Virus record (IMG/VR): IMGVR_UViG_3300020411_000003
DNA from: a virus
DNA length: 64,000 nucleotides
Direction: 5' to 3' (one strand)
Position numbers and translations under genes: made by a program. The notes below the pieces were generated by a model. It saw only the letters and a list, made by a program, of their open reading frames with translations. It was not told the DNA's origin and searched no databases. This document shows, one piece after another, positions 44,073 to 52,960 of the stretch; positions within the stretch are counted from its first letter, which is position 1; each line of letters opens with the position of its first letter.

Positions 44073-45518
44073 TTATGCGTCTGATTTTGTGTCTTCGTAA
44101 CCCCAAGAGTCACGAATCAATTCCAATACAGTATAGACACTCATGGAAGGTCTGTCAAATTGATGATTGAGTTTCCTGATCAAGTAGATACCACTGTGTT
44201 CTGGATCAACCGATCCTAGGTCTTCCTTGCTTTCTAAAGGAACTTGGTTGGGTATCTGTACTTCAATCTTCTGACCCACTCTCAAATCTAGGTTCCCTGT
44301 CACAGATATAGCTAATTGCTGATTGAACAATGTACCCACACGTGAGATAGATTGTACCAAATACTGCTTTTGAGAATCATAGAATTCAGATGGTTCGTCA
44401 CTTTCATCAGAAGCATCGTTCGATGCTACTTCAGTACCATTGTACCAATTTTCATGATTAATCACAGAAGATAAGCGTCTAGTTGGATACTGAGATAATT
44501 GTTCTTGCCCCTTTGGTAGTTTAGTTTGTGGTCCCAAATGAGCCATCTCATCCCAGCTTTCACTTAATTTATATGTGTACTCCGTGTAAACACCAGTATT
44601 TATGTCAAAAAACGCACACTCAGTAGAATACGCACCCTCTCTGAGTTTCTTCATCATGTCAATCTCAGATCTAAAGACAACTTCTTGAATTTTTCTGTGA
44701 TCTTTAAATTCTGTCTGATCTACATTTGCTGGTTCATAAGAATACACAGCAACTTTACCAGAACCACCAAATTTACTTGGATCTGGTGATACAACAGAAT
44801 CTACACTCTTGAAATTAAATCCATCACGATCTTCCCAGAAGAAATATCCAGCAGTACCTTTAAGTTTTTTAGAATCCTTGACATTATCTGATTTTGTATC
44901 TACATTAGTGTCACCACTATTACTGATAATATCAGATGATGTTCCACCTCCACCTGCTGTGAATGTTTCTTTGGATATTGCTTTAGCTTGTAAGTCTCTA
45001 ATTACTGCAAACGGTGATTTACCAGCAGGAATTATCTTGAATGTATTAAGAGACTCTTCAACTTTTATCTTAGCAGAAGGTACATTAAGATAATCTATAA
45101 GAAGACTATTGACAATTCCACTAGCAGTATTTGTGAGAACCTTATTTACTTTAACACCTTCATTAGTTAATCCTTGATCACCAATCAATCCTAAAGTATA
45201 TGCTTGACCCTTCTCAGTACTAACTCTGTTACCAATCTTCCATACACGAAAATCAAATTGATGATCATCACCTTTATTATCTGAAACAGCAATAACAACC
45301 TTCTCGAAACCTGTGATAGGCATATCAGCAGGTAGATTAAGTGCTTTGTCAAGAATTACCAGAGTACCAGATATCGATGGTGATAATAAATCCTCAACAT
45401 ACTGGAAACTAGAAAACGCATCAGTAAGATATGCGTATGGTTCACCCATCTCTTGACCTACTTTCCAAATAGCGACAAATTTTATATTATATTGTTCTGC
45501 TCTAACTATTTCTGACAT
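44073..45518 (-). CDS. baseplate hub protein (gp27/late-control-D-like)
   Basis: YFFWEDRDGFNFKSVD, GNLDLRVGQKIEVQIP, HSGIYLIRKLNHQF. Confidence 0.7.
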   Translation of the reverse strand: MSEIVRAEQYNIKFVAIWKVGQEMGEPYAYLTDAFSSFQYVEDLLSPSISGTLVILDKALNLPADMPITGFEKVVIAVSDNKGDDHQFDFRVWKIGNRVSTEKGQAYTLGLIGDQGLTNEGVKVNKVLTNTASGIVNSLLIDYLNVPSAKIKVEESLNTFKIIPAGKSPFAVIRDLQAKAISKETFTAGGGGTSSDIISNSGDTNVDTKSDNVKDSKKLKGTAGYFFWEDRDGFNFKSVDSVVSPDPSKFGGSGKVAVYSYEPANVDQTEFKDHRKIQEVVFRSEIDMMKKLREGAYSTECAFFDINTGVYTEYTYKLSESWDEMAHLGPQTKLPKGQEQLSQYPTRRLSSVINHENWYNGTEVASNDASDESDEPSEFYDSQKQYLVQSISRVGTLFNQQLAISVTGNLDLRVGQKIEVQIPNQVPLESKEDLGSVDPEHSGIYLIRKLNHQFDRPSMSVYTVLELIRDSWGYEDTKSDA

Positions 45519-47920
45519 TATTTGAATGCTGAGTATACAAATTGATATTGATCGACCTGCGTTTCTGCTGAATTATCAATATGAGACAATGGTTCATCAT
45601 GAGATTCAGTATTATGAGTAATAACGTTCTGACTATTAAGGGTTAAACTATCTAAATCAACCTCATTCTTAACCAGTCTATTAAGAGACTGTTCCTTTGA
45701 ATTCAAATCAACAATTTCTGCTTTACCATTAGCTAATGGTTCTGCCCATGATGGTCTCTCACCAGTATATCCAGGATGATTGTAGTATGCATTTGGACCA
45801 TGCATATCTTGATACTGACCAACAGGATCTGGGAATATAAAATCGGTAAGGAAACTTGCAATACCAAGTGCTTTTGATCCAAACTTAAGGAATGGTTTTG
45901 CCATACCCATAAGTCCCAAACCTTTATTTGCTGGTGATGTCATCAACCCTCTAGCAATATTTGCTTGAGCACTGTTAGGATATGCACCACCCAGTAATCT
46001 CTGAGCTAGATTCAATCCCTTAGTTGCTTGTTTAGGTTTAACAGCAACTTCTGATGACATACCAAAATTCTTCAACCAACCAGGCAATCTAAGACCAGAA
46101 CCTTTCGGTTGTAGTACATTTAATACCTTACCTCTTCCAGCACCAAGATTACTAGCACCAGTTCCTGGAAGACCCTTAACACTGAAAGGATTTAAACCAG
46201 TAGCACCAGGTCTAGCATACTGAGCAGAATTCCAGAAGTCTGGTGTTAAGAATGTCTTACCTTTACCAGCCCAACTCATAGCATTGCTAGGTTTGAATCC
46301 ACCTGAGAATATACTGGCTGCTCTAGCATTACTGGTTCCATGATATAAGTTTTGTAGACTACTTGAACCACTTAAACCTGGACCACCTATACCACCATAT
46401 CCATGATCCCCTCCATCACCACTTTCTCTGTCACCTCTGAATAATCCAAATATATCCCACCACGCACGTCTATTCTGACTCTGTTCTTTCCTGAAGATCT
46501 CCTGATTTCTTTGTTCTGACTGGTATGCTTTAGTCTCTAATAAATTATTGACCTTACCACTAATTGTATCTTTAACACTAAATGCTTGAGCAACAGGATC
46601 AATAACAGATCCTATAGTATTTTTCATACCACTGAATCCTGGTGTTGCTCTAACAGCATTACCAGTAGCAGCCATGATTCCTAATGAAGCAACCTCAAAT
46701 GGTAACTTCATTGCTTTCATCAAATTCTCTTCACTGAACTTGTCTCTCTTAACATCATTCACTGGAGACTTCATTATATTACCAGAAGTCTCAGATGGTC
46801 TCTGAGCAAAGAAGTTCATTGCTGGTATTTGTGGAGTAGGAGCAGGTATATCTGTTCCAGTCTCATACTGTTTACGAGTTACACCATCAACAGCACTCGG
46901 TTGTCCTTGTGTATAATTATTATCTAATGGTGTGATCATCTCATCACCATGTAACCTGACTAGGTATCCACTATCAGGACCAGAAACTATACCACCCTGT
47001 TCAAAGTTAGGAACATCAACTCCACCAAAATCTAACTCCTCATTATCAACATCTAAAGCATTCTCAAGTTCATTCTCTTGTCTTATCTGATTAGGATCCT
47101 CATCAAGATCAGTAAATCTCTCAGTACCAGAAAGATCATCCTCTTGGTCTAATTTTTTCTTTACCTCAGTAGTTTCTGCTTGATCAGCTTGTTGTTTAGC
47201 AAGTGCAAGTTGCTCATTTAATATACCAGCAATAGCATCTAACCTATCACCTATGCCATCATTGCTAACTTCAAGACCCTTAGCAATAGCAAGGTTGGAC
47301 TGATTTGCAGCAGTAATCTCAGACTCTAGAGTACCCTGTTTCTGATTAATAGAAGCAACAGTTCTATTAAGTGACTCTGCTATAGCAGCAAAGAATATAC
47401 CAAGTTTTTCATCCTTGACATTTACAGGGTTATTCTTCTCCGAAACACTACTTTCATACCTCCTAGTACCAGAAGATCCGACCATTGGAGTATTTGATTG
47501 TACATTCTTAGTGATTGCTCCAGGAGTAATATTAAGCATATTACCAAGAATAGTATCATTTGGTACTATTTCAGGATCTATACCACCACCCCCACGAGGA
47601 CCACCACCAGATGCTGTAGGTTGAGGATTTATAGGACTTGCAAACGGTGTACTCTGACCTCTATTAAAATAATCAGGATACTTAAATTTACTACCAAAAT
47701 TCCTTCTCCTAACAAAACCAGGAGTCATCTGATACTTCAGTGCTTCACCAAAAAATTCTCCTCTACGAAGTCCTAGAATATCTCTGTCTACTTTAAGTTT
47801 ATCAGCAGCAGCATGAGCACGTGCCTTCTCAGACTTAGCCATACTGGCAGCATCAAACAACGCACCAATTATCATTGGTGCAATACTTCCGTCAGCTACA
47901 GCTTGATATCTAACAGTCAT
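45518..47920 (-). CDS. tape-measure-like virion protein with an ART-like C-terminal segment
   Basis: Coiled-coil region; FEQGGIVSGPDSGYLVRLHGDE motif; LYHGTS...YA...SEVAV. Confidence 0.55.
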   Translation of the reverse strand: MTVRYQAVADGSIAPMIIGALFDAASMAKSEKARAHAAADKLKVDRDILGLRRGEFFGEALKYQMTPGFVRRRNFGSKFKYPDYFNRGQSTPFASPINPQPTASGGGPRGGGGIDPEIVPNDTILGNMLNITPGAITKNVQSNTPMVGSSGTRRYESSVSEKNNPVNVKDEKLGIFFAAIAESLNRTVASINQKQGTLESEITAANQSNLAIAKGLEVSNDGIGDRLDAIAGILNEQLALAKQQADQAETTEVKKKLDQEDDLSGTERFTDLDEDPNQIRQENELENALDVDNEELDFGGVDVPNFEQGGIVSGPDSGYLVRLHGDEMITPLDNNYTQGQPSAVDGVTRKQYETGTDIPAPTPQIPAMNFFAQRPSETSGNIMKSPVNDVKRDKFSEENLMKAMKLPFEVASLGIMAATGNAVRATPGFSGMKNTIGSVIDPVAQAFSVKDTISGKVNNLLETKAYQSEQRNQEIFRKEQSQNRRAWWDIFGLFRGDRESGDGGDHGYGGIGGPGLSGSSSLQNLYHGTSNARAASIFSGGFKPSNAMSWAGKGKTFLTPDFWNSAQYARPGATGLNPFSVKGLPGTGASNLGAGRGKVLNVLQPKGSGLRLPGWLKNFGMSSEVAVKPKQATKGLNLAQRLLGGAYPNSAQANIARGLMTSPANKGLGLMGMAKPFLKFGSKALGIASFLTDFIFPDPVGQYQDMHGPNAYYNHPGYTGERPSWAEPLANGKAEIVDLNSKEQSLNRLVKNEVDLDSLTLNSQNVITHNTESHDEPLSHIDNSAETQVDQYQFVYSAFK

Positions 47921-47921
47921 T

Positions 47922-50900
47922 CTATCCTACTAACTTTGCCAACTTAAACATCTCAAGAGAATTATTGTTACTAGCAATAACATTATTCTTCCTCTTGACA
48001 GTCTGGTTGTTAACTATAGTGTTATTTAACATAACAATCTGTAAAGTATTAGAATCTTCCTCTATTTGACTAAACAATTTACTATCATCAAGAAGTCTAT
48101 TATCATTCATTAAATTAATTGCTGATAAAATTTCAGTTTGAAGATTATTATTCACTTGTAAATCTTTAATATCATTGTGATGTGGTGATTCATCATAATC
48201 AATAGGGTTATCTCGCAACAGATTTAAAATAGGACTACTTCTTCTTTCTCCTACATCATTCATCCACTTAGATTCTACTCCAGGTCTGTTAACTGGATCT
48301 GCAAACTGAAGTTGTCTTGCTGCTTCTTCAAAATCACCATTTTTCAATGCTTCTTCCATTGATGGAAATGCATCTAAGAAATAAGGACCCATATTAAAGA
48401 CCAAATCAATCAATGCTGCTCTCTGTCTTTCAGAAGCTTCTGCCCAACCAGGAAGATTCATTGCTGCTTCTAAATGATGTTTGAAATCCATCTCAAATAA
48501 TTCATTAGCTTTCTCTTGAGTAATAACATCACCTTCCTTCAAACCATATACAGGAGAATCTTCATCAATTAAGTGTCCATAACCAATTGTCAGATTGTCG
48601 TTGTTATCATAATATGCGTCAAGTCTAAGTCCTTCATGCTCTTTGATCATCTCTTTCTCAAAAGTATAATCTTTCTGTTCAATACCTCCTAATAGGTCAT
48701 TCCTCTTTGGAGATAGACCTTCAGATTTAATAATCAAGTTAGTTAAGAAACTTGCATTAGAATAGGTTGCCGTACTATCAGGTTCATAGAAATCAACACT
48801 GGTATGATATCCAGACATCCTACCAGCACCATTAGGTTGAAGTTCTGGTTCACCTGATGGAGCAGATACAAAACCAACTTGTCCTAGATATTGTCCTCTT
48901 CTAACCTTTTTTCCTTCTTTGACTTTAATACCACCATCAGGAAAGTGTGCGTACAAAGCATCAAATTCCTTACCATTGGTAGGATCAGTACTTCTAATAA
49001 TTACAACGTTACCATAATTGGTACTTTGATGTCCTGTCTTAACAACTGTACCATCAAACAATGAATAATTCTTAGTATAATCACCATAACTAAAATCAAC
49101 ACCAGGTTCTCCTGAACGGTCTAGACCTTGCTTACCTGTAAAAGTTATAGTAGTCGGATTAGGATGATCACCATCTCCTCCAAATGATTGCAACCATTTT
49201 CCAAACATCTTTATAGGTTGAAATCCACCTTCACCATTATTTTCTTCTGGTTCTACTTCTTCTTTCTTACGATTTTTATCAAATTGTTCCTTAGCCCACG
49301 CTGACAAACTATCTGTTCTTTCTAAGTAAGTTTCAGTAGTTGCCCTTGATTTAACTGGTGCAGTTTTAATACCAGTATTATATCTAATATTTCTAACTGC
49401 AAATGGTAAGGAAGAAACTGTATTAGAGATATCTCTATCAACTCTGAGATCTCTTGCCATTGCAACACTAGTAGATACTAAAGTATCACCAATATTTTTA
49501 ATATGGCTTGTGGTCATACCACTCTTAGGATCTACTGCTTGAATCAACTCTGTACCGTGCATCATACTATCTCCTCTCCTGGTCAATCCATATGGATTAC
49601 CTTGTTCAAACTGGTCTATTCTACCACCACTAGCGGTATAATTCAAACGATCATTAGCGTCAGGAGGAGGTGGTAACCCAAGTGGGTTAAACCCAAGATC
49701 CCTACCAATATCAACTGCGGTGACACCCCATCCTAGTATAGGTACAGCAGAAAGTAAGGATAATATACCACCAGTCGTATCACCCTGAGAGAATCTATAT
49801 CCTGCTTCACCTAATGCTATAAACGTACCTACACCTGGTATGAATTTAGAACTCTTACCAAGTGCTTTAGCACCTGCTTTAGTAGCTACCTTTTTCGTTG
49901 CTTTTTTGCCTGCACTACTAGCAAATTTCTTCTGTATAACTCTACTACCAACATCTGATCCAAGATAAGGAACTTTTCTTGAAATGGAAGGTGGTAACCC
50001 CATTTGAGGTGCAATATCAGCACTCACACCTTTCATACCTTTGACCAGTTCAGGAGAGATCAACCCCTTATTGATCATCTGTTGGACTCCACTCTTCTGT
50101 CCAGCTCTTGCTGCACGTGCTGCTCTATCTTTTAGAATTTTAGCATCCCCAAAATCTCCTAACAATTCTTCAGGTATACCAGATTTGAGGGTGGCATCCA
50201 GACGGGCTAAACCCTTTGGCGATAAAATTGTCTTCTGGTGTTTTCTAATTGAAGTTCTTCCTAAACCAGTTTCAAGATATTTTTTAAATCTGGGTTTTCC
50301 AAGTTGTCTAGTCAGATAAGCACCTGCATATTCAGGTCCAAATCTCATTAAAATCTTCCTGAAATTCTTACCCCCTATAATTTCACCAGTAGCTGTAGCA
50401 AGTCTTCTTCTACCAAAACCTCTTACACCTAATCGAGACTTTATTGCATTAGCTGCTTTCTTTAAACCAAGTTTATCAAAAACTGCATTAGCAATTTTTC
50501 TACCAACAATATCGGATAGAGCTCCAAATATCCATTGACCTGTTTCAGTTCCAGTACCAAATCCAGTATATCTCCTAGTTCTTGAAAGATCTCTTGTTAG
50601 TTCTAATTGATTCTCTGCTCGAGCTACCTGTGATTTGTCCTTAAGAATATTTTGAAATTCAAACTGTTGTTGATATAAATTTAAAACCTTATCTAATTTA
50701 CCTGCAATCAACTCATTATGATCGATCATCAAATCGATACTATGCTGATGAGATGTTCTTATGTCAGATAAAAGATTCAGACTCTTAGATACTCTTTGAT
50801 CTACCAGTGCTAACTTAGCATCTATACCACCACCAAAAACACGAGCAACATACTCTCTAAGTTTCTCGTCTTTTACTGGTATATGATCATCATTTGCCAA

Positions 50901-51266
50901 AAGATCGTCAACAGCACGATCAACGTCTTCATTAGACTTTTTTACTTCTTCTTCAGCCTCCTCAGTCTGTTTCTTTGTTCTAGGAAAATTTGCAGCAAAT
51001 CTACTTGCTTTACTAGCTGCTCTATCAGTTTTCCTGGCATCAGAATTTGGATTAAGAGTGCCTATTGTTCTGGCAAAGAAGTCTCCACCAAATTCACTTA
51101 CTAATGCCTTACCAAATAAATTACCACTATTAGCAACATTCAGACCAGCTTGTCTATCCCTCTCCTGTGACTCTGCCTCGTCTCTAGCCATGCCAGCAGC
51201 AGACATTACCTTACCTGCTATCCACTGGGAAGTATCACCTCTAACTGTTGACTGATATCTAGCCAT
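47922..51266 (-). CDS. tape-measure-like virion protein with M23-like and GH24 lysozyme domains
   Basis: IKEHEGLRLDAYYDNNDNLTIGYGHL; GNVVIIR...ALYAHF...VKEGKKVRRGQYLG. Confidence 0.7.
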   Translation of the reverse strand: MARYQSTVRGDTSQWIAGKVMSAAGMARDEAESQERDRQAGLNVANSGNLFGKALVSEFGGDFFARTIGTLNPNSDARKTDRAASKASRFAANFPRTKKQTEEAEEEVKKSNEDVDRAVDDLLANDDHIPVKDEKLREYVARVFGGGIDAKLALVDQRVSKSLNLLSDIRTSHQHSIDLMIDHNELIAGKLDKVLNLYQQQFEFQNILKDKSQVARAENQLELTRDLSRTRRYTGFGTGTETGQWIFGALSDIVGRKIANAVFDKLGLKKAANAIKSRLGVRGFGRRRLATATGEIIGGKNFRKILMRFGPEYAGAYLTRQLGKPRFKKYLETGLGRTSIRKHQKTILSPKGLARLDATLKSGIPEELLGDFGDAKILKDRAARAARAGQKSGVQQMINKGLISPELVKGMKGVSADIAPQMGLPPSISRKVPYLGSDVGSRVIQKKFASSAGKKATKKVATKAGAKALGKSSKFIPGVGTFIALGEAGYRFSQGDTTGGILSLLSAVPILGWGVTAVDIGRDLGFNPLGLPPPPDANDRLNYTASGGRIDQFEQGNPYGLTRRGDSMMHGTELIQAVDPKSGMTTSHIKNIGDTLVSTSVAMARDLRVDRDISNTVSSLPFAVRNIRYNTGIKTAPVKSRATTETYLERTDSLSAWAKEQFDKNRKKEEVEPEENNGEGGFQPIKMFGKWLQSFGGDGDHPNPTTITFTGKQGLDRSGEPGVDFSYGDYTKNYSLFDGTVVKTGHQSTNYGNVVIIRSTDPTNGKEFDALYAHFPDGGIKVKEGKKVRRGQYLGQVGFVSAPSGEPELQPNGAGRMSGYHTSVDFYEPDSTATYSNASFLTNLIIKSEGLSPKRNDLLGGIEQKDYTFEKEMIKEHEGLRLDAYYDNNDNLTIGYGHLIDEDSPVYGLKEGDVITQEKANELFEMDFKHHLEAAMNLPGWAEASERQRAALIDLVFNMGPYFLDAFPSMEEALKNGDFEEAARQLQFADPVNRPGVESKWMNDVGERRSSPILNLLRDNPIDYDESPHHNDIKDLQVNNNLQTEILSAINLMNDNRLLDDSKLFSQIEEDSNTLQIVMLNNTIVNNQTVKRKNNVIASNNNSLEMFKLAKLVG

Positions 51267-51402
51267 TCTGTGCCTGTTGCTTTTGTTTGACTTCTTCTAG
51301 ATATTGCATCAAGAACGCTACATAAACTTCACGTTCCCATGGCATCCAATTCTCTACTTCGGTCAAACTATATTTATGGTACTGCATCAGAGCAAAATTC
51401 AT
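51259..51402 (-). CDS. gp51: gp51-like baseplate hub assembly protein (47 aa from the first ATG; frame open back to the gp26 slippery site)
   Basis: Manual translation MNFALMQYHKYSLTEVENWMPWEREVYV...; not in the ORF track. Confidence 0.8.
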   Translation of the reverse strand: MNFALMQYHKYSLTEVENWMPWEREVYVAFLMQYLEEVKQKQQAQNG

Positions 51403-51404
51403 TC

Positions 51405-51450
51405 TATAGTACCCCTCCAGGTTATTATGGAAGAGTGCTATACGAAAAAA
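51405..51450 (-). other. candidate -1 programmed frameshift signal (T-TTT-TTC plus hairpin)
   Basis: Heptamer at 51450-51444 is in the gp26 frame; hairpin TATAGCACTCTTCC/GGAGGGGTACTATA. Confidence 0.6.
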
Positions 51451-52151
51451 CTCTGTAATCCCTCCAAAGTATACTCAGATTCAACTCCAGTCTTGGGATT
51501 AGTCACTTTAAACGTATGACGCAATTTTGGAGATGTTTCATAGAATTGTTGAATTGACTCAAATTGCTTAGTAGTCAATCCTTCGACAAATTGCCGAAAT
51601 TCCTTCTTTGTAGTAGTTGTAGAGTCAAATACCTCTTCAGAGTCATATATCTGATCTATGCTTTCAGCAATTAAATCAAAAACTTGCTCAGTATCCAATT
51701 CTTTCTGTAAAAAGTCTAATTCGATGAATCTCTGCATACTTGGATATTTCATCACAATACCCATTTCATCAGTCAACTCAATTTTGTTAGTATGACCTTC
51801 TGGTTTGAAAACATTGATATCATCAATATTAATGACTGTTTCTGCTTTTGTCTCATTATCATCAAGACAAGTTACAGTCAAAGTGATGCTTTCTCCAATA
51901 GAAGCACCTCTAATCTTCAAAAAGAGATATTCCAAATCAAACAAAGGTAGCGTATCCACCTTAATTCTCGAAATAACGCAATTTTTGATTAAATCCTTAA
52001 CAGCAGATGTAATCTGTTTTTCGTCTTCTGCCTCTAATGCTAGTAAAAGTACTTTTTCCTCTTTTACTAAAAATGGTCGATATTTAACAGTTTTGCCTGT
52101 AGAAGGCAATTCTAATTCATAGGTAGGATAACCAACTTTCGGTAATGCCAT
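51438..52151 (-). CDS. gp26: baseplate hub assembly chaperone gp26
   Basis: PTYELELPSTGKTVKYRPFLVKEEKVLL...DLEYLFLKIRGASIGE. Confidence 0.9.
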   Translation of the reverse strand: MALPKVGYPTYELELPSTGKTVKYRPFLVKEEKVLLLALEAEDEKQITSAVKDLIKNCVISRIKVDTLPLFDLEYLFLKIRGASIGESITLTVTCLDDNETKAETVINIDDINVFKPEGHTNKIELTDEMGIVMKYPSMQRFIELDFLQKELDTEQVFDLIAESIDQIYDSEEVFDSTTTTKKEFRQFVEGLTTKQFESIQQFYETSPKLRHTFKVTNPKTGVESEYTLEGLQSFFV

Positions 52152-52171: not shown

Positions 52172-52179
52172 TATTTATA
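52172..52179 (-). promoter_or_regulatory. T4-type late promoter TATAAATA
   Basis: Exact consensus 20 nt upstream of gp26, within an AAGTCG/CGACTT hairpin. Confidence 0.75.
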
Positions 52180-52252: not shown

Positions 52253-52960
52253 CTAGCCTGGTGGGAGTCTTCCTGTTCTATCAAAAAATTCGGTGGCAGT
52301 TTCTTCTTTCTTTGCTTGAGCCATATTTTTATTTTGATTCACTTCAGAGAAAATTACCGAATGTCTTACGTAATGAAAGTTAACAGTGACTCTGGTGACC
52401 TGAGAGGATCCATAAGACAAAGGAACAGCATCTATAGCATAAGGATAAGAACCTTCCAACATATATGTAATTGAAGGTCTATCACCATACCCAACATAAT
52501 TTGACGCATTTGTAGTACCTAATTCAACCTTAGTAATCCTAGTTGTACAGGTATAAGTTTCAGGATAAGAAAGTCTAGTCTTTCTCTCTCTTGTCCTAGT
52601 TCCTTGAGACATCATATTTTCAACGTCAGCAGCCTCAAGAATTTGTTGATTATCAAGAAAAATTTGATCATACCACTGCTGAAAAAACTTTAACTGAGTC
52701 AAGTTTGCATCACAAAGGAATCCCAGAGACACATCAGTGAACAATCTGGTATGCGGATATTGATAAGGACCTTCACCTAAAAATCGTCCTGTCATCTGTG
52801 CGGTAGCAGCCTGTACGTTAGGCAACTGTGCTTCATCACAGAACAAAGTTAGGTCTTCACCATCCCCACCTGGCCTATCAAATTTTACGAGATAGGTAGT
52901 CGTACGGGATATTCCCCCACGAGCTCCTATTTTTCCCATTAAGTTCTCTATGCTTGACAC
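52253..52960 (-). CDS. tail-tube-family protein (gp54/gp19-like tube initiator)
   Basis: FCDEAQLPNV...YPYAIDAVPLSYGSSQVTRVTVNFHY. Confidence 0.7.
   Translation of the reverse strand: MSSIENLMGKIGARGGISRTTTYLVKFDRPGGDGEDLTLFCDEAQLPNVQAATAQMTGRFLGEGPYQYPHTRLFTDVSLGFLCDANLTQLKFFQQWYDQIFLDNQQILEAADVENMMSQGTRTRERKTRLSYPETYTCTTRITKVELGTTNASNYVGYGDRPSITYMLEGSYPYAIDAVPLSYGSSQVTRVTVNFHYVRHSVIFSEVNQNKNMAQAKKEETATEFFDRTGRLPPG

What the first reader, a model, noticed from the sequence alone, without database searches (positions are those of the whole stretch)
51259..52151. Putative -1 ribosomal frameshift fusing gp26 to gp51: a lambda G/GT-like tail chaperone system in a T4-like phage
Seen: gp26 ends ...CAG AGT TTT TTC GTA TAG, containing the X-XXY-YYZ heptamer U-UUU-UUC at 51450-51444. 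The -1 frame has a TGA eight codons earlier, then is open from the heptamer straight into gp51 (FFRIALFHNNLEGYYRMNFALMQYHKYS...), with no ATG, GTG or TTG for 16 codons. A hairpin (TATAGCACTCTTCC/GGAGGGGTACTATA, 51442-51405) follows immediately and sequesters the GGAGG SD of the internal ATG. The predicted fusion is about 297 aa. Known: long-tailed phages make tail assembly chaperones G and GT by a -1 frameshift in the gene pair just upstream of the tape measure gene, and the pair here is immediately upstream of two tape-measure-like genes. Inference: the short cyanophage gp51 is really the T-like extension, produced in fixed ratio to gp26. I am not aware of this being described for T4-like cyanophages.
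Basis: partly seen in the sequence, partly recalled or inferred. Interest (0 to 1): 0.85.

Follow-up and report, generated by a model that had tools for sequence, protein, structure and literature searches.

The report
Frameshift joins cyanophage gp26 and gp51
This T4-like cyanophage very probably makes a short and a long form of one tail-assembly protein, because some ribosomes slip back one base on a strictly conserved TTTTTTC run; this is the lambda G/GT trick that reviews say is missing from T4, which instead has two separate genes (26 and 51).

Summary
gp26 (51438-52151, minus strand) ends with the in-phase heptamer T_TTT_TTC (51450-51444). The -1 frame is open from a TGA 8 codons upstream, through 16 codons with no start codon, into the 47-codon gp51 ORF. 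A hairpin follows (z = -4.0).

- **Conservation.** All 81 Kyanoviridae-type junctions keep TTTTTTCG, gp51 in the -1 frame and an open -1 frame. The codon before the run always ends in T, although it varies over six codons and five amino acids. The arrangement recurs in seven further lineages of T4-related phages.
- **No fixed start.** The first gp51 ATG moves between five positions. In several phages it comes only 21-33 codons after the run, yet the peptide upstream of it is conserved.
- **T4 comparison.** T4 gp51 is a complete gp26-type domain plus this same tail. The predicted 297-aa fusion aligns to long gp51 proteins without a gap across the junction. Lineages with a long gp51 have lost the slippery run.
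- **Fold.** The first ~90 residues of gp26 best match solved tail assembly chaperones.

No paper reporting the slip was found, and a 2016 review names T4 as the exception. This scan noted the same signal on at least 67 other genomes. No protein evidence exists yet.

The parts
52172..52179 (-). TATAAATA, a T4-type late-promoter-like box 20 nt upstream of the gp26 ATG
   Evidence: Read from the sequence. The sigma-70 scan found no promoter or terminator between gp26 and gp51. Late-promoter function is an inference from the T4 consensus (my own knowledge).
52253..52960 (-). Upstream gene, 235 aa, tail-tube-type protein
   Evidence: Pfam PF23849 Phage_TTP_2, E 1.5e-54; phrog_45 tail tube. Relatives annotate it as tail tube or tube initiator.
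51438..52151 (-). gp26 ORF (237 aa plus stop), the zero-frame 'G-like' product. Residues 1-~90 have a tail-assembly-chaperone-like fold.
   Evidence: PF12322 T4_baseplate, E 6e-72; phrog_150. AlphaFold model pLDDT 91.7. Top structural matches are YqbN, the HK97 tail assembly chaperone, 3fgx and the PLE chaperone.
51460..51465 (-). GGAGGG, Shine-Dalgarno-like, 9 nt upstream of the heptamer; a possible upstream stimulator
   Evidence: Read from the sequence. GAGGG is present in most relatives, but it also encodes the conserved Glu-Gly, so a stimulator role is only an inference.
51444..51450 (-). Slippery heptamer T_TTT_TTC, the proposed -1 shift site
   Evidence: Invariant in 81 of 81 junctions, with the preceding codon always NNT (AGT, TCT, AAT, GCT, GGT, GAT). 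A -1-frame stop lies directly 5' of the run in L013 and L073. The zero-frame stop lies directly 3' of it in HTVC008M. The run is lost in lineages that have a separate long gp51.
51405..51442 (-). Hairpin after the heptamer. The core 9-bp stem starts 7 nt after the heptamer, and its 3' arm holds the GGAGG that precedes the gp51 ATG.
   Evidence: z -4.0 and -2.3. In the window's clade, 79.6% of cells are paired against about 50% for slid controls, and 3 pairs change on both sides. Hairpins of other sequence sit at the same place in most Kyanoviridae loci. They are weak or absent in several outgroups.
51259..51444 (-). -1-frame extension (61 codons plus stop), the 'T-like' tail. It includes the annotated 47-codon gp51 ORF (51259-51402).
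   Evidence: phrog_634 baseplate hub assembly catalyst, E 1e-19, matching only profile positions 71-116 of 121. The peptide is conserved from the heptamer onward in all relatives. It is colinear with the C-terminus of long gp51 proteins. The database labels this tail PF28602 Gp51_C.
47922..51266 (-). Downstream 1114-aa gene whose ATG overlaps the gp51 stop (ATGGCTAG); a candidate tape measure or hub protein
   Evidence: M23 peptidase and phage lysozyme domains lie in the C-terminal third. No similarity to T4 gp29 or to the HTVC008M 'putative tail tape measure'. The tape-measure role is an inference from size and position only.

Best explanation
gp26 and 'gp51' form one recoded gene.

Most ribosomes translate gp26 (237 aa) and stop at TAG. 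A fraction slips back one base while decoding UUU-UUC on U_UUU_UUC. In this clade the slip is probably helped by the hairpin whose strong stem starts 7 nt downstream, and possibly by the GGAGGG 9 nt upstream. Those ribosomes go on in the -1 frame and make a 297-aa gp26-gp51 fusion, with the junction reading ...S-F-F|R-I-A....

The short and long forms share the chaperone-like gp26 body, and only the long form carries the helical Gp51_C tail. They would act as lambda gpG and gpGT do, as non-virion chaperones for assembly of the hub, tape measure and tube, made in a ratio fixed by the shift efficiency. T4 itself makes the same two forms from two paralogous genes, 26 and 51.

Shown here: the signal, its conservation, the colinearity with T4-type gp51, and the chaperone-like fold. 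Inferred: that the slip happens, its efficiency, that it is ribosomal rather than transcriptional, and the chaperone function.
For: 1. The signal is present and in phase.

2. In 81 of 81 junctions TTTTTTCG is kept, gp51 is in the -1 frame and the -1 frame is open. The wobble base before the run is always T across six codons and five amino acids, while neighbouring wobble positions vary freely.

3. Stops in the two frames pin the shift window to the heptamer itself: directly 5' of it in L013 and L073, and directly 3' of it in HTVC008M.

4. The first ATG in the gp51 frame lies at +5, +14, +38, +50 or +53 nt after the gp26 stop.
- It comes only 21 codons after the run in Cronobacter LPCS28 and S-CAM1, and 33 codons after it in Aeromonas AS-szw.
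- The peptide FFR(I/V/L)... is nevertheless conserved from the heptamer onward.
- In the window's clade, 10 of 14 third positions of the -1 frame between the heptamer and the ATG are below 70% conserved, against 3 of 27 first and second positions (counted).

5. The same arrangement occurs in Pelagibacter, Ochrobactrum, Stenotrophomonas, Cronobacter, Vibrio, Aeromonas and Rhizobium phages.

6. T4 gp51 residues 1-201 form a full PF12322 domain (E 4e-52), followed by a tail like the cyanophage gp51. A profile of 79 in-silico fusions aligns without a gap through the junction to long gp51 proteins.

7. The cultured phage S-CAM1 has one PF12322 gene in 198 kb and no annotated gp51. It can therefore make a gp51-type protein only by the shift.

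8. Negative control: lineages with a separate long gp51 do not keep a canonical slippery run at the gp26 end (G TTC TTT G/A in T4, VR26 and Roth04; one relative has GAG TTT TTT). In four of the eight the Phe-Phe pair itself is replaced.

9. Of 48,161 solved chains, the best matches of the window gp26 model are YqbN (Z 6.8), the HK97 tail assembly chaperone (Z 6.8), 3fgx (Z 6.1) and the PLE chaperone 5ir0 (Z 4.8). The next, unrelated chain scores 4.2. A second model of a 43%-identical homologue reproduced this.

10. Gene order is tail-tube-like gene, gp26, gp51, then a very large gene.
Against: - No protein, ribosome-profiling or reporter data exist.
- The window has its own ATG with GGAGG 11 nt upstream. 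Most relatives have an ATG 2-11 nt after the gp26 stop, so gp51 could also, or instead, be made separately.
- The hairpin is not universal: z is about 0 in the HTVC008M, Ochrobactrum, Cronobacter and Rhizobium phages and in about a fifth of Kyanoviridae loci. Covariation in the window's clade is modest.
- Fold matches of Z 6-7 lie in the range the tool calls 'middling'. No chaperone Pfam family matches by sequence.
- The downstream gene could not be shown to be a tape measure.
- Ackermannviridae-type relatives have degenerate runs (G ATT TTC, C CTT TTT, A CTT TTC) yet keep the -1 ORF. The shift is therefore either non-canonical there or replaced by reinitiation.
Confidence: 0.82

Rival explanations
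1. The same fusion protein is made, but by transcriptional slippage. RNA polymerase adds one extra U on the T6 run (T7-T8 in some relatives), and normal translation of that mRNA reads gp26 into gp51.
For: The site is a homopolymer run of 6 T, of 7 in the Ochrobactrum phage and of 8 in HTVC008M. The downstream hairpin is dispensable in several lineages. Rare assemblies carry T7 and a fused 301-aa ORF, which shows that a single added T gives exactly this product.
Against: From my own knowledge and PMC5009743, bacterial RNA polymerase slips efficiently mainly on runs of about 9 or more. The run is kept in the exact X_XXY_YYZ phase and is followed by C or G. Many clades keep a hairpin 5-8 nt downstream, the geometry of ribosomal stimulators, whereas the known slippage-promoting stems lie upstream. 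The T7 contigs are a pilon-polished contig and a contig labelled 4.36x coverage, so they are probably homopolymer errors.
Confidence: 0.08
2. There is no recoding. gp51 is an independent small protein, started at its own ATG (51402 here) or by termination-reinitiation after the gp26 stop. The TTTTTTC run is kept only because gp26 needs Phe-Phe at its end.
For: The window has ATG plus GGAGG. About half of the relatives have an ATG 2 nt after the gp26 stop. Many GenBank records annotate a separate gp51. Vibrio phage D532 has ATG overlapping the TAA and no canonical heptamer.
Against: - This does not explain the invariant T at the wobble position of a variable codon, nor the invariant TTT-TTC choice.
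- It does not explain conservation and -1-frame codon periodicity upstream of any start codon.
- It does not explain phages with no start for 21-33 codons, which were left unannotated.
- It does not explain why the tail in T4-type phages is always the C-terminus of a gp26-type domain.
- It does not explain loss of the run exactly where a long gp51 exists.
- The window's GGAGG is buried in the hairpin.
Confidence: 0.08
3. A chance juxtaposition of a T-run, an open -1 frame and a hairpin, with no function.
For: One gene in three lies in the -1 phase, and 16 open codons are not rare in AT-rich DNA.
Against: 81 of 81 junctions and seven further lineages keep every element.
Confidence: 0.01

Closest known systems
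Lambda gpG/gpGT and the conserved -1 frameshift of tail assembly chaperone genes in long-tailed phages (Levin 1993 and Xu, Hendrix & Duda 2004/2013/2014, as summarised in PMC5009743)
   Same: - A slippery heptamer a few codons before the stop of the upstream ORF.
- Short and long products that share an N-terminus.
- The gene pair sits after a tail-tube-type gene and before a very large gene.
- The N-terminal domain has a chaperone-like fold.
   Different: - No sequence membership in any chaperone Pfam family.
- The 'G' part is 237 aa, with extra alpha/beta domains after the chaperone-like 90 residues.
- The 'T' part is only 61 aa and helical.
- The heptamer is U_UUU_UUC, not G_GGA_AAG.
- The family is annotated as baseplate hub subunit and assembly catalyst.
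- The review states that G-T frameshifting is conserved 'except T4'.
Phage T4 gp26 (208 aa) and gp51 (249 aa), hub assembly chaperones (PMC3004832, Table 2)
   Same: Both carry PF12322. T4 gp51 is that domain plus the Gp51_C tail, colinear with the predicted fusion, and T4 gp26 corresponds to the unshifted product. gp51 is required for assembly but absent from the particle, as with gpGT.
   Different: T4 encodes the two forms as separate, divergently transcribed paralogues with no slippery run. Here a single gene makes both. Klebsiella phage Fraggle has the two in tandem on one strand.
HK97 tail assembly chaperone (PDB 2OB9), B. subtilis YqbN (3KLU) and the V. cholerae PLE chaperone (5IR0)
   Same: These are the best structural matches of gp26 residues 1-~90: Z 6.8, 6.8 and 4.8, with 79-85 residues aligned of chains 103-119 residues long.
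   Different: Sequence identity is 5-13%, and the Z values are moderate. These proteins are about 100-120 aa, single-domain proteins. That YqbN is an XkdN-type chaperone is from my own knowledge.
E. coli dnaX -1 frameshift signal (upstream SD-like element, heptamer, downstream hairpin)
   Same: The window shows the same three-part layout: GGAGGG 9 nt upstream, the heptamer, and a hairpin core 7 nt downstream.
   Different: The SD-like element also encodes the conserved Glu-Gly, so it is not shown to be selected as RNA. The product here is an extension, not a truncation.

Membership tests
Programmed -1 ribosomal frameshift site | X_XXY_YYZ heptamer in the zero-frame phase, with an overlapping open -1 ORF | tested here: met
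   T_TTT_TTC at 51450-51444. The -1 frame is open from 51474 to 51262.
Programmed -1 ribosomal frameshift site | Heptamer conserved beyond what the amino acids require (synonymous sites) | tested here: met
   81 of 81 junctions keep the run. The preceding codon is always NNT across six codons and five amino acids, and TTT-TTC is never replaced. The run is lost in T4-type lineages.
Programmed -1 ribosomal frameshift site | Downstream stimulatory structure 5-9 nt after the heptamer | tested here: inconclusive
   Present here (z -4.0 and -2.3) and in many Kyanoviridae (34 of 80 with z < -2). Covariation is modest. It is absent in several outgroups.
Programmed -1 ribosomal frameshift site | Trans-frame protein detected | not testable with these tools
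   This needs mass spectrometry, a western blot or a reporter assay.
Lambda G/GT-type tail assembly chaperone pair | [quoted passage not shown] | tested here: met
   Met at the sequence level only: the heptamer lies 1 codon before the gp26 stop.
Lambda G/GT-type tail assembly chaperone pair | Located between the tail tube gene and the tape measure gene | tested here: inconclusive
   The upstream gene is PF23849 tail-tube type. The downstream 1114-aa gene could not be identified as a tape measure.
Lambda G/GT-type tail assembly chaperone pair | Tail-assembly-chaperone fold | tested here: met
   In two independent models the top hits of 48,161 chains are 2ob9, 3klu and 3fgx (Z 6.1-6.9) plus 5ir0. 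The next unrelated match to this domain scores 4.2. The Z values are moderate, and the match covers residues 1-~90 only.
Lambda G/GT-type tail assembly chaperone pair | Sequence match to a known chaperone family (Pfam Phage_TAC_*) | tested here: not met
   Pfam finds only PF12322. NCBIfam finds nothing. A profile search against PDB sequences finds nothing.
Lambda G/GT-type tail assembly chaperone pair | Binds the tape measure and tube proteins and is absent from the virion | not testable with these tools
   The only support is by analogy: T4 gp51 is required for assembly but is not in the particle (PMC3004832).
T4 gp26/gp51 family (PF12322 T4_baseplate, with or without Gp51_C) | PF12322 domain | tested here: met
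   E 6.4e-72, covering profile positions 2-218 of 219.
T4 gp26/gp51 family (PF12322 T4_baseplate, with or without Gp51_C) | Gp51 C-terminal tail colinear with the tail of long gp51 | tested here: met
   phrog_634, E 1e-19. PF28602 Gp51_C is recorded on fused database forms. The alignment to long gp51 proteins is gapless through the junction.

The most novel reading that the evidence does not exclude
gp26 and gp51 are the G/GT-type tail assembly chaperones of the whole T4 superfamily. On this reading the -1 frameshift is the ancestral state, still used by Kyanoviridae, by many Straboviridae outside Tevenvirinae, and by related families. T4, the textbook 'exception', replaced it with a gene duplication in which one copy was fused in frame to the tail; a single added T in the run would do this. 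This would give the long-unexplained 'hub assembly catalyst' gp51 a defined mechanism.
Probability: 0.6. Interest if true: 0.8.

Novelty: new member of a known kind. Interest (0 to 1): 0.72.

Why it matters
- **It removes the T4 exception.** The G/GT frameshift is regarded as near-universal in long-tailed phages 'except T4' (PMC5009743). This result indicates that the T4 superfamily is not an exception: most of its branches use the frameshift, and T4 encodes the same two forms as genes 26 and 51.
- **It explains old puzzles.** Sullivan et al. 2010 noted that cyanophage and vibriophage gp51 lack the first ~200 residues and that Aeh1 'lacks' gp51. The missing residues are supplied by gp26 through the shift.
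[quoted passage not shown] The G/GT analogy gives it a hypothesis that can be tested in a tractable phage.
- **It corrects annotation.** All eleven frameshift-type GenBank/RefSeq records examined here annotate a tiny separate gp51 or nothing at all, and none shows a joined coding sequence.

Tried and rejected
- **Structure and family searches.** Foldseek against the PDB gave nothing below E 0.1. A profile of gp26 against PDB sequences gave nothing. NCBIfam found nothing for gp26 or for the tail. Rfam gave only a chance MIR394 match (E 0.14, 20 bits against a gathering score of 60). BFVD returned only other 'baseplate hub' proteins.
- **Downstream gene.** I tried to show that the 1114-aa gene is the tape measure. 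It has no similarity to T4 gp29 or to the HTVC008M 'putative tail tape measure', and the ESM Atlas was uninformative.
- **Fused forms.** The search for longer gp26 homologues returned only fusions with neighbouring genes. The search with the tail found 301-aa in-frame forms. These carry T7 instead of T6 (L105), and both come from contigs where homopolymer errors are likely (a pilon-polished contig and one labelled 4.36x coverage). I treat them as probable homopolymer errors, not natural fusions.
- **Universal hairpin.** Rejected: outgroups lack it.
- **Genome context.** No whole genome is held for this window, so the check for paralogues was made on the relative S-CAM1.
- **Lost tool.** The script machine was lost. 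A wider quantitative survey (dN/dS, more clades, efficiency predictors) could not be run.
- **Literature.** Ten full-text searches found no report of this frameshift. Subscription-only papers, including Xu et al. 2004, could not be read.
Full report
**Observation**

On the minus strand, gp26 (51438-52151, 237 aa) ends CAG AGT TTT TTC GTA TAG. T_TTT_TTC (51450-51444) is therefore in X_XXY_YYZ phase.

The -1 frame has TGA at 51477-51475. It is then open through the heptamer and through 16 codons that contain no ATG, GTG or TTG, up to the ATG at 51402 of the 47-codon gp51 ORF (stop at 51261-51259).

The hairpin at 51442-51405 is real. The 81-nt context folds at -25.7 kcal/mol, z = -4.0, and none of 200 shuffles folds as well. 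Its GC-rich core stem starts 7 nt after the heptamer, and its 3' arm contains the GGAGG that precedes the ATG. A GGAGGG lies 9 nt upstream of the heptamer.

- gp26 is PF12322 T4_baseplate (E 6e-72).
- gp51 matches phrog_634, 'baseplate hub assembly catalyst', but only profile positions 71-116 of 121.
- The upstream gene is a tail-tube-type protein (PF23849).
- The downstream 1114-aa gene carries M23 peptidase and lysozyme domains.

**Conservation in relatives**

I fetched 80 IMG/VR loci encoding gp26 relatives of 51-78% identity and analysed the junctions.

- All 81 junctions, counting the window, keep TTTTTTCG. In all 80 where a gp51 match could be placed, it lies in the -1 frame at a constant distance (38 or 41 nt after the gp26 stop). 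The remaining locus, L018, runs off its contig 40 nt after the stop, but its -1 frame is open there too. The -1 frame is open across the run in all 81.
- The codon before TTT varies (AGT, TCT, AAT, GCT, GGT, GAT; five amino acids) but always ends in T. The third positions of the codons on either side vary freely. This is selection on the nucleotide run, not on the protein.
- In L013 and L073 a -1-frame stop lies directly 5' of the run. In Pelagibacter phage HTVC008M the zero-frame stop lies directly 3' of it. Taken together, the only shift window shared by all relatives is the heptamer itself.

**The gp51 frame has no fixed start**

- The first ATG lies at +5, +14, +38, +50 or +53 nt after the gp26 stop.
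- The -1 peptide FFR(I/V/L)..H..LE.Y(Y/F) is nevertheless conserved from the heptamer onward in every locus.
- In the window's clade (alignment A1), 10 of 14 third positions of the -1 frame between the heptamer and the window's ATG are below 70% conserved. Only 3 of 27 first and second positions are. This is the signature of protein-coding selection upstream of the ATG.

**Beyond cyanophages**

The same arrangement, T_TTT_TTY at the gp26 end with a gp51-like ORF in the -1 frame, occurs in these phages:

- Pelagibacter phage HTVC008M and Ochrobactrum phage OC (both T_TTT_TTT);
- Stenotrophomonas Ps15, where GAT TTT TTC is kept;
- Cronobacter LPCS28, Vibrio D483 and Aeromonas AS-szw;
- a Rhizobium phage (T_TTT_TTG).

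In LPCS28 and AS-szw the first ATG comes only 21 and 33 codons after the run, and no gp51 is annotated. The same holds for the cultured cyanophage S-CAM1. Its 198-kb genome has a single PF12322 gene.

Ackermannviridae-type relatives keep the -1 ORF but have degenerate runs (G ATT TTC, C CTT TTT, A CTT TTC). One of them has an ATG overlapping the stop. The mechanism there is open.

**The T4 comparison**

In T4, genes 26 and 51 are divergently transcribed, so no shift can join them.

- T4 gp51 (249 aa) is a complete PF12322 domain (residues 1-201, E 4e-52) followed by a tail of about 48 aa. That tail resembles the cyanophage gp51.
- I built the 79 predicted trans-frame fusions in silico; the window's is 297 aa. 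A profile made from them aligns to the long gp51 proteins of Aeromonas AhFM11, Proteus Pm5461 and others without a gap through the junction.
- T4 gp51 is therefore the equivalent of the fusion, and T4 gp26 the equivalent of the unshifted product.
- As a negative control I examined eight lineages that have a separate long gp51. None keeps a canonical slippery run at the gp26 end (G TTC TTT G/A in T4, VR26 and Roth04; one relative has GAG TTT TTT), and in four the Phe-Phe pair itself is replaced.
- Klebsiella phage Fraggle has the long gp51 and gp26 in tandem on one strand, which suggests a duplication.
- Rare 301-aa in-frame ORFs in ENA assemblies carry T7 instead of T6 (L105). They are probably homopolymer errors, since both come from error-prone assemblies. 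They do show that one added T yields exactly the T4-gp51 architecture.

**Is it a tail assembly chaperone?**

- AlphaFold models of the window gp26 (pLDDT 91.7) and of a fused homologue (pLDDT 86; the tail is helical) were compared with 48,161 solved chains.
- In both searches the top matches are the HK97 tail assembly chaperone 2OB9, YqbN (3KLU) and 3FGX, at Z 6.1-6.9 with 79-86 residues aligned on model residues 1-~90.
- The PLE chaperone 5IR0 also appears, ranking fourth (Z 4.8) for the window's gp26 and eighteenth (Z 4.5) for the fused homologue. The best unrelated match to this domain scores 4.2. 5IR0 is called a tail assembly chaperone in PMC12987554.
- The Z values are moderate. Foldseek and sequence profiles see nothing.
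- I read this as real but not conclusive support. Gene order (tube-type gene, gp26, gp51, very large gene) fits. The large gene could not be shown to be a tape measure.

**The hairpin**

- Most Kyanoviridae loci have a hairpin starting 5-8 nt after the run, of different sequence in different clades (mean z -1.8; 34 of 80 below -2).
- In the window's clade the named stem is 79.6% paired, against about 50% for slid controls. Three pairs change on both sides.
- Several outgroups have no significant structure. The heptamer is the universal element, and the hairpin is a stimulator specific to some clades.

**Literature**

- Sullivan et al. 2010 recorded that cyanophage and vibriophage gp51 lack the first ~200 residues and that Aeh1 lacks gp51, without explaining it.
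- Leiman et al. 2010 list gp26 and gp51 as hub assembly chaperones. They call gp51 essential, of unknown function and absent from the particle.
- Atkins et al. 2016 state that G-T frameshifting is conserved among long-tailed phages 'except T4'.
- Ten full-text searches found no report of a gp26-gp51 frameshift. None of the eleven frameshift-type GenBank/RefSeq records examined carries a joined coding sequence.
- Earlier AI notes of this scan describe the same signal on at least 67 other genomes, with the same reading. They are not independent evidence. I reached the T4 comparison before reading them.

**Verdict**

A -1 shift at U_UUU_UUC that makes a 297-aa gp26-gp51 fusion is very probable, at about 0.8. 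Within that, a ribosomal mechanism is favoured over transcriptional slippage. A G/GT-like chaperone role is likely, at about 0.6. It is a new member of a known kind of system, and it removes the best-known exception to that kind.

Noticed in passing
window 47922-51266 (-): A 1114-aa protein whose ATG overlaps the gp51 stop (ATGGCTAG). It has an M23 peptidase domain (residues 721-809) and a phage lysozyme domain (875-987) after an N-terminal part of about 700 aa with no family match. This fits a tape measure or hub protein carrying cell-wall hydrolases, but no homology to T4 gp29 was found.
   Followed up: partly
window 45518-47920 (-): An 800-aa protein that starts where the 1114-aa gene ends. 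It matches only phrog_10925 (unknown function). An earlier first-reader note proposes an ADP-ribosyltransferase-like island in it; I did not examine that.
   Followed up: no
window 52172-52179 (-): TATAAATA, identical to the T4 late-promoter consensus, lies 20 nt upstream of the gp26 ATG.
   Followed up: no
L105:2206-2216 and L106 (ENA contigs): In-frame 301-aa gp26-gp51 ORFs (P0005, P0008). In L105 the ORF is fused by a run of 7 T where relatives have 6; the L106 DNA was not inspected. One contig is pilon-polished and the other is labelled 4.36x coverage, so these are probably homopolymer errors. The product equals the predicted frameshift fusion.
   Followed up: partly
L088, L090, L091 (Klebsiella 0507-KN2-1, Vibrio D532, Vibrio Kuja): Ackermannviridae-type relatives keep a gp51-like ORF in the -1 frame after gp26, but with degenerate runs (G ATT TTC, A CTT TTC, C CTT TTT). 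D532 has an ATG overlapping the TAA stop. Either the slip there is non-canonical or the shift has been replaced by reinitiation.
   Followed up: partly
L102:1301-2594 (Klebsiella phage Fraggle): The long gp51 (247 aa) and gp26 (187 aa) lie in tandem on one strand, right after the tail tube gene. This looks like an intermediate between the frameshift arrangement and T4's divergent genes.
   Followed up: no
L107 (S-CAM1 RefSeq), L084, L086, L088: Four deposited genomes have an unannotated gap of 160-500 nt after gp26. It holds the conserved gp51-like -1 ORF, so these records miss a T4 core gene.
   Followed up: partly
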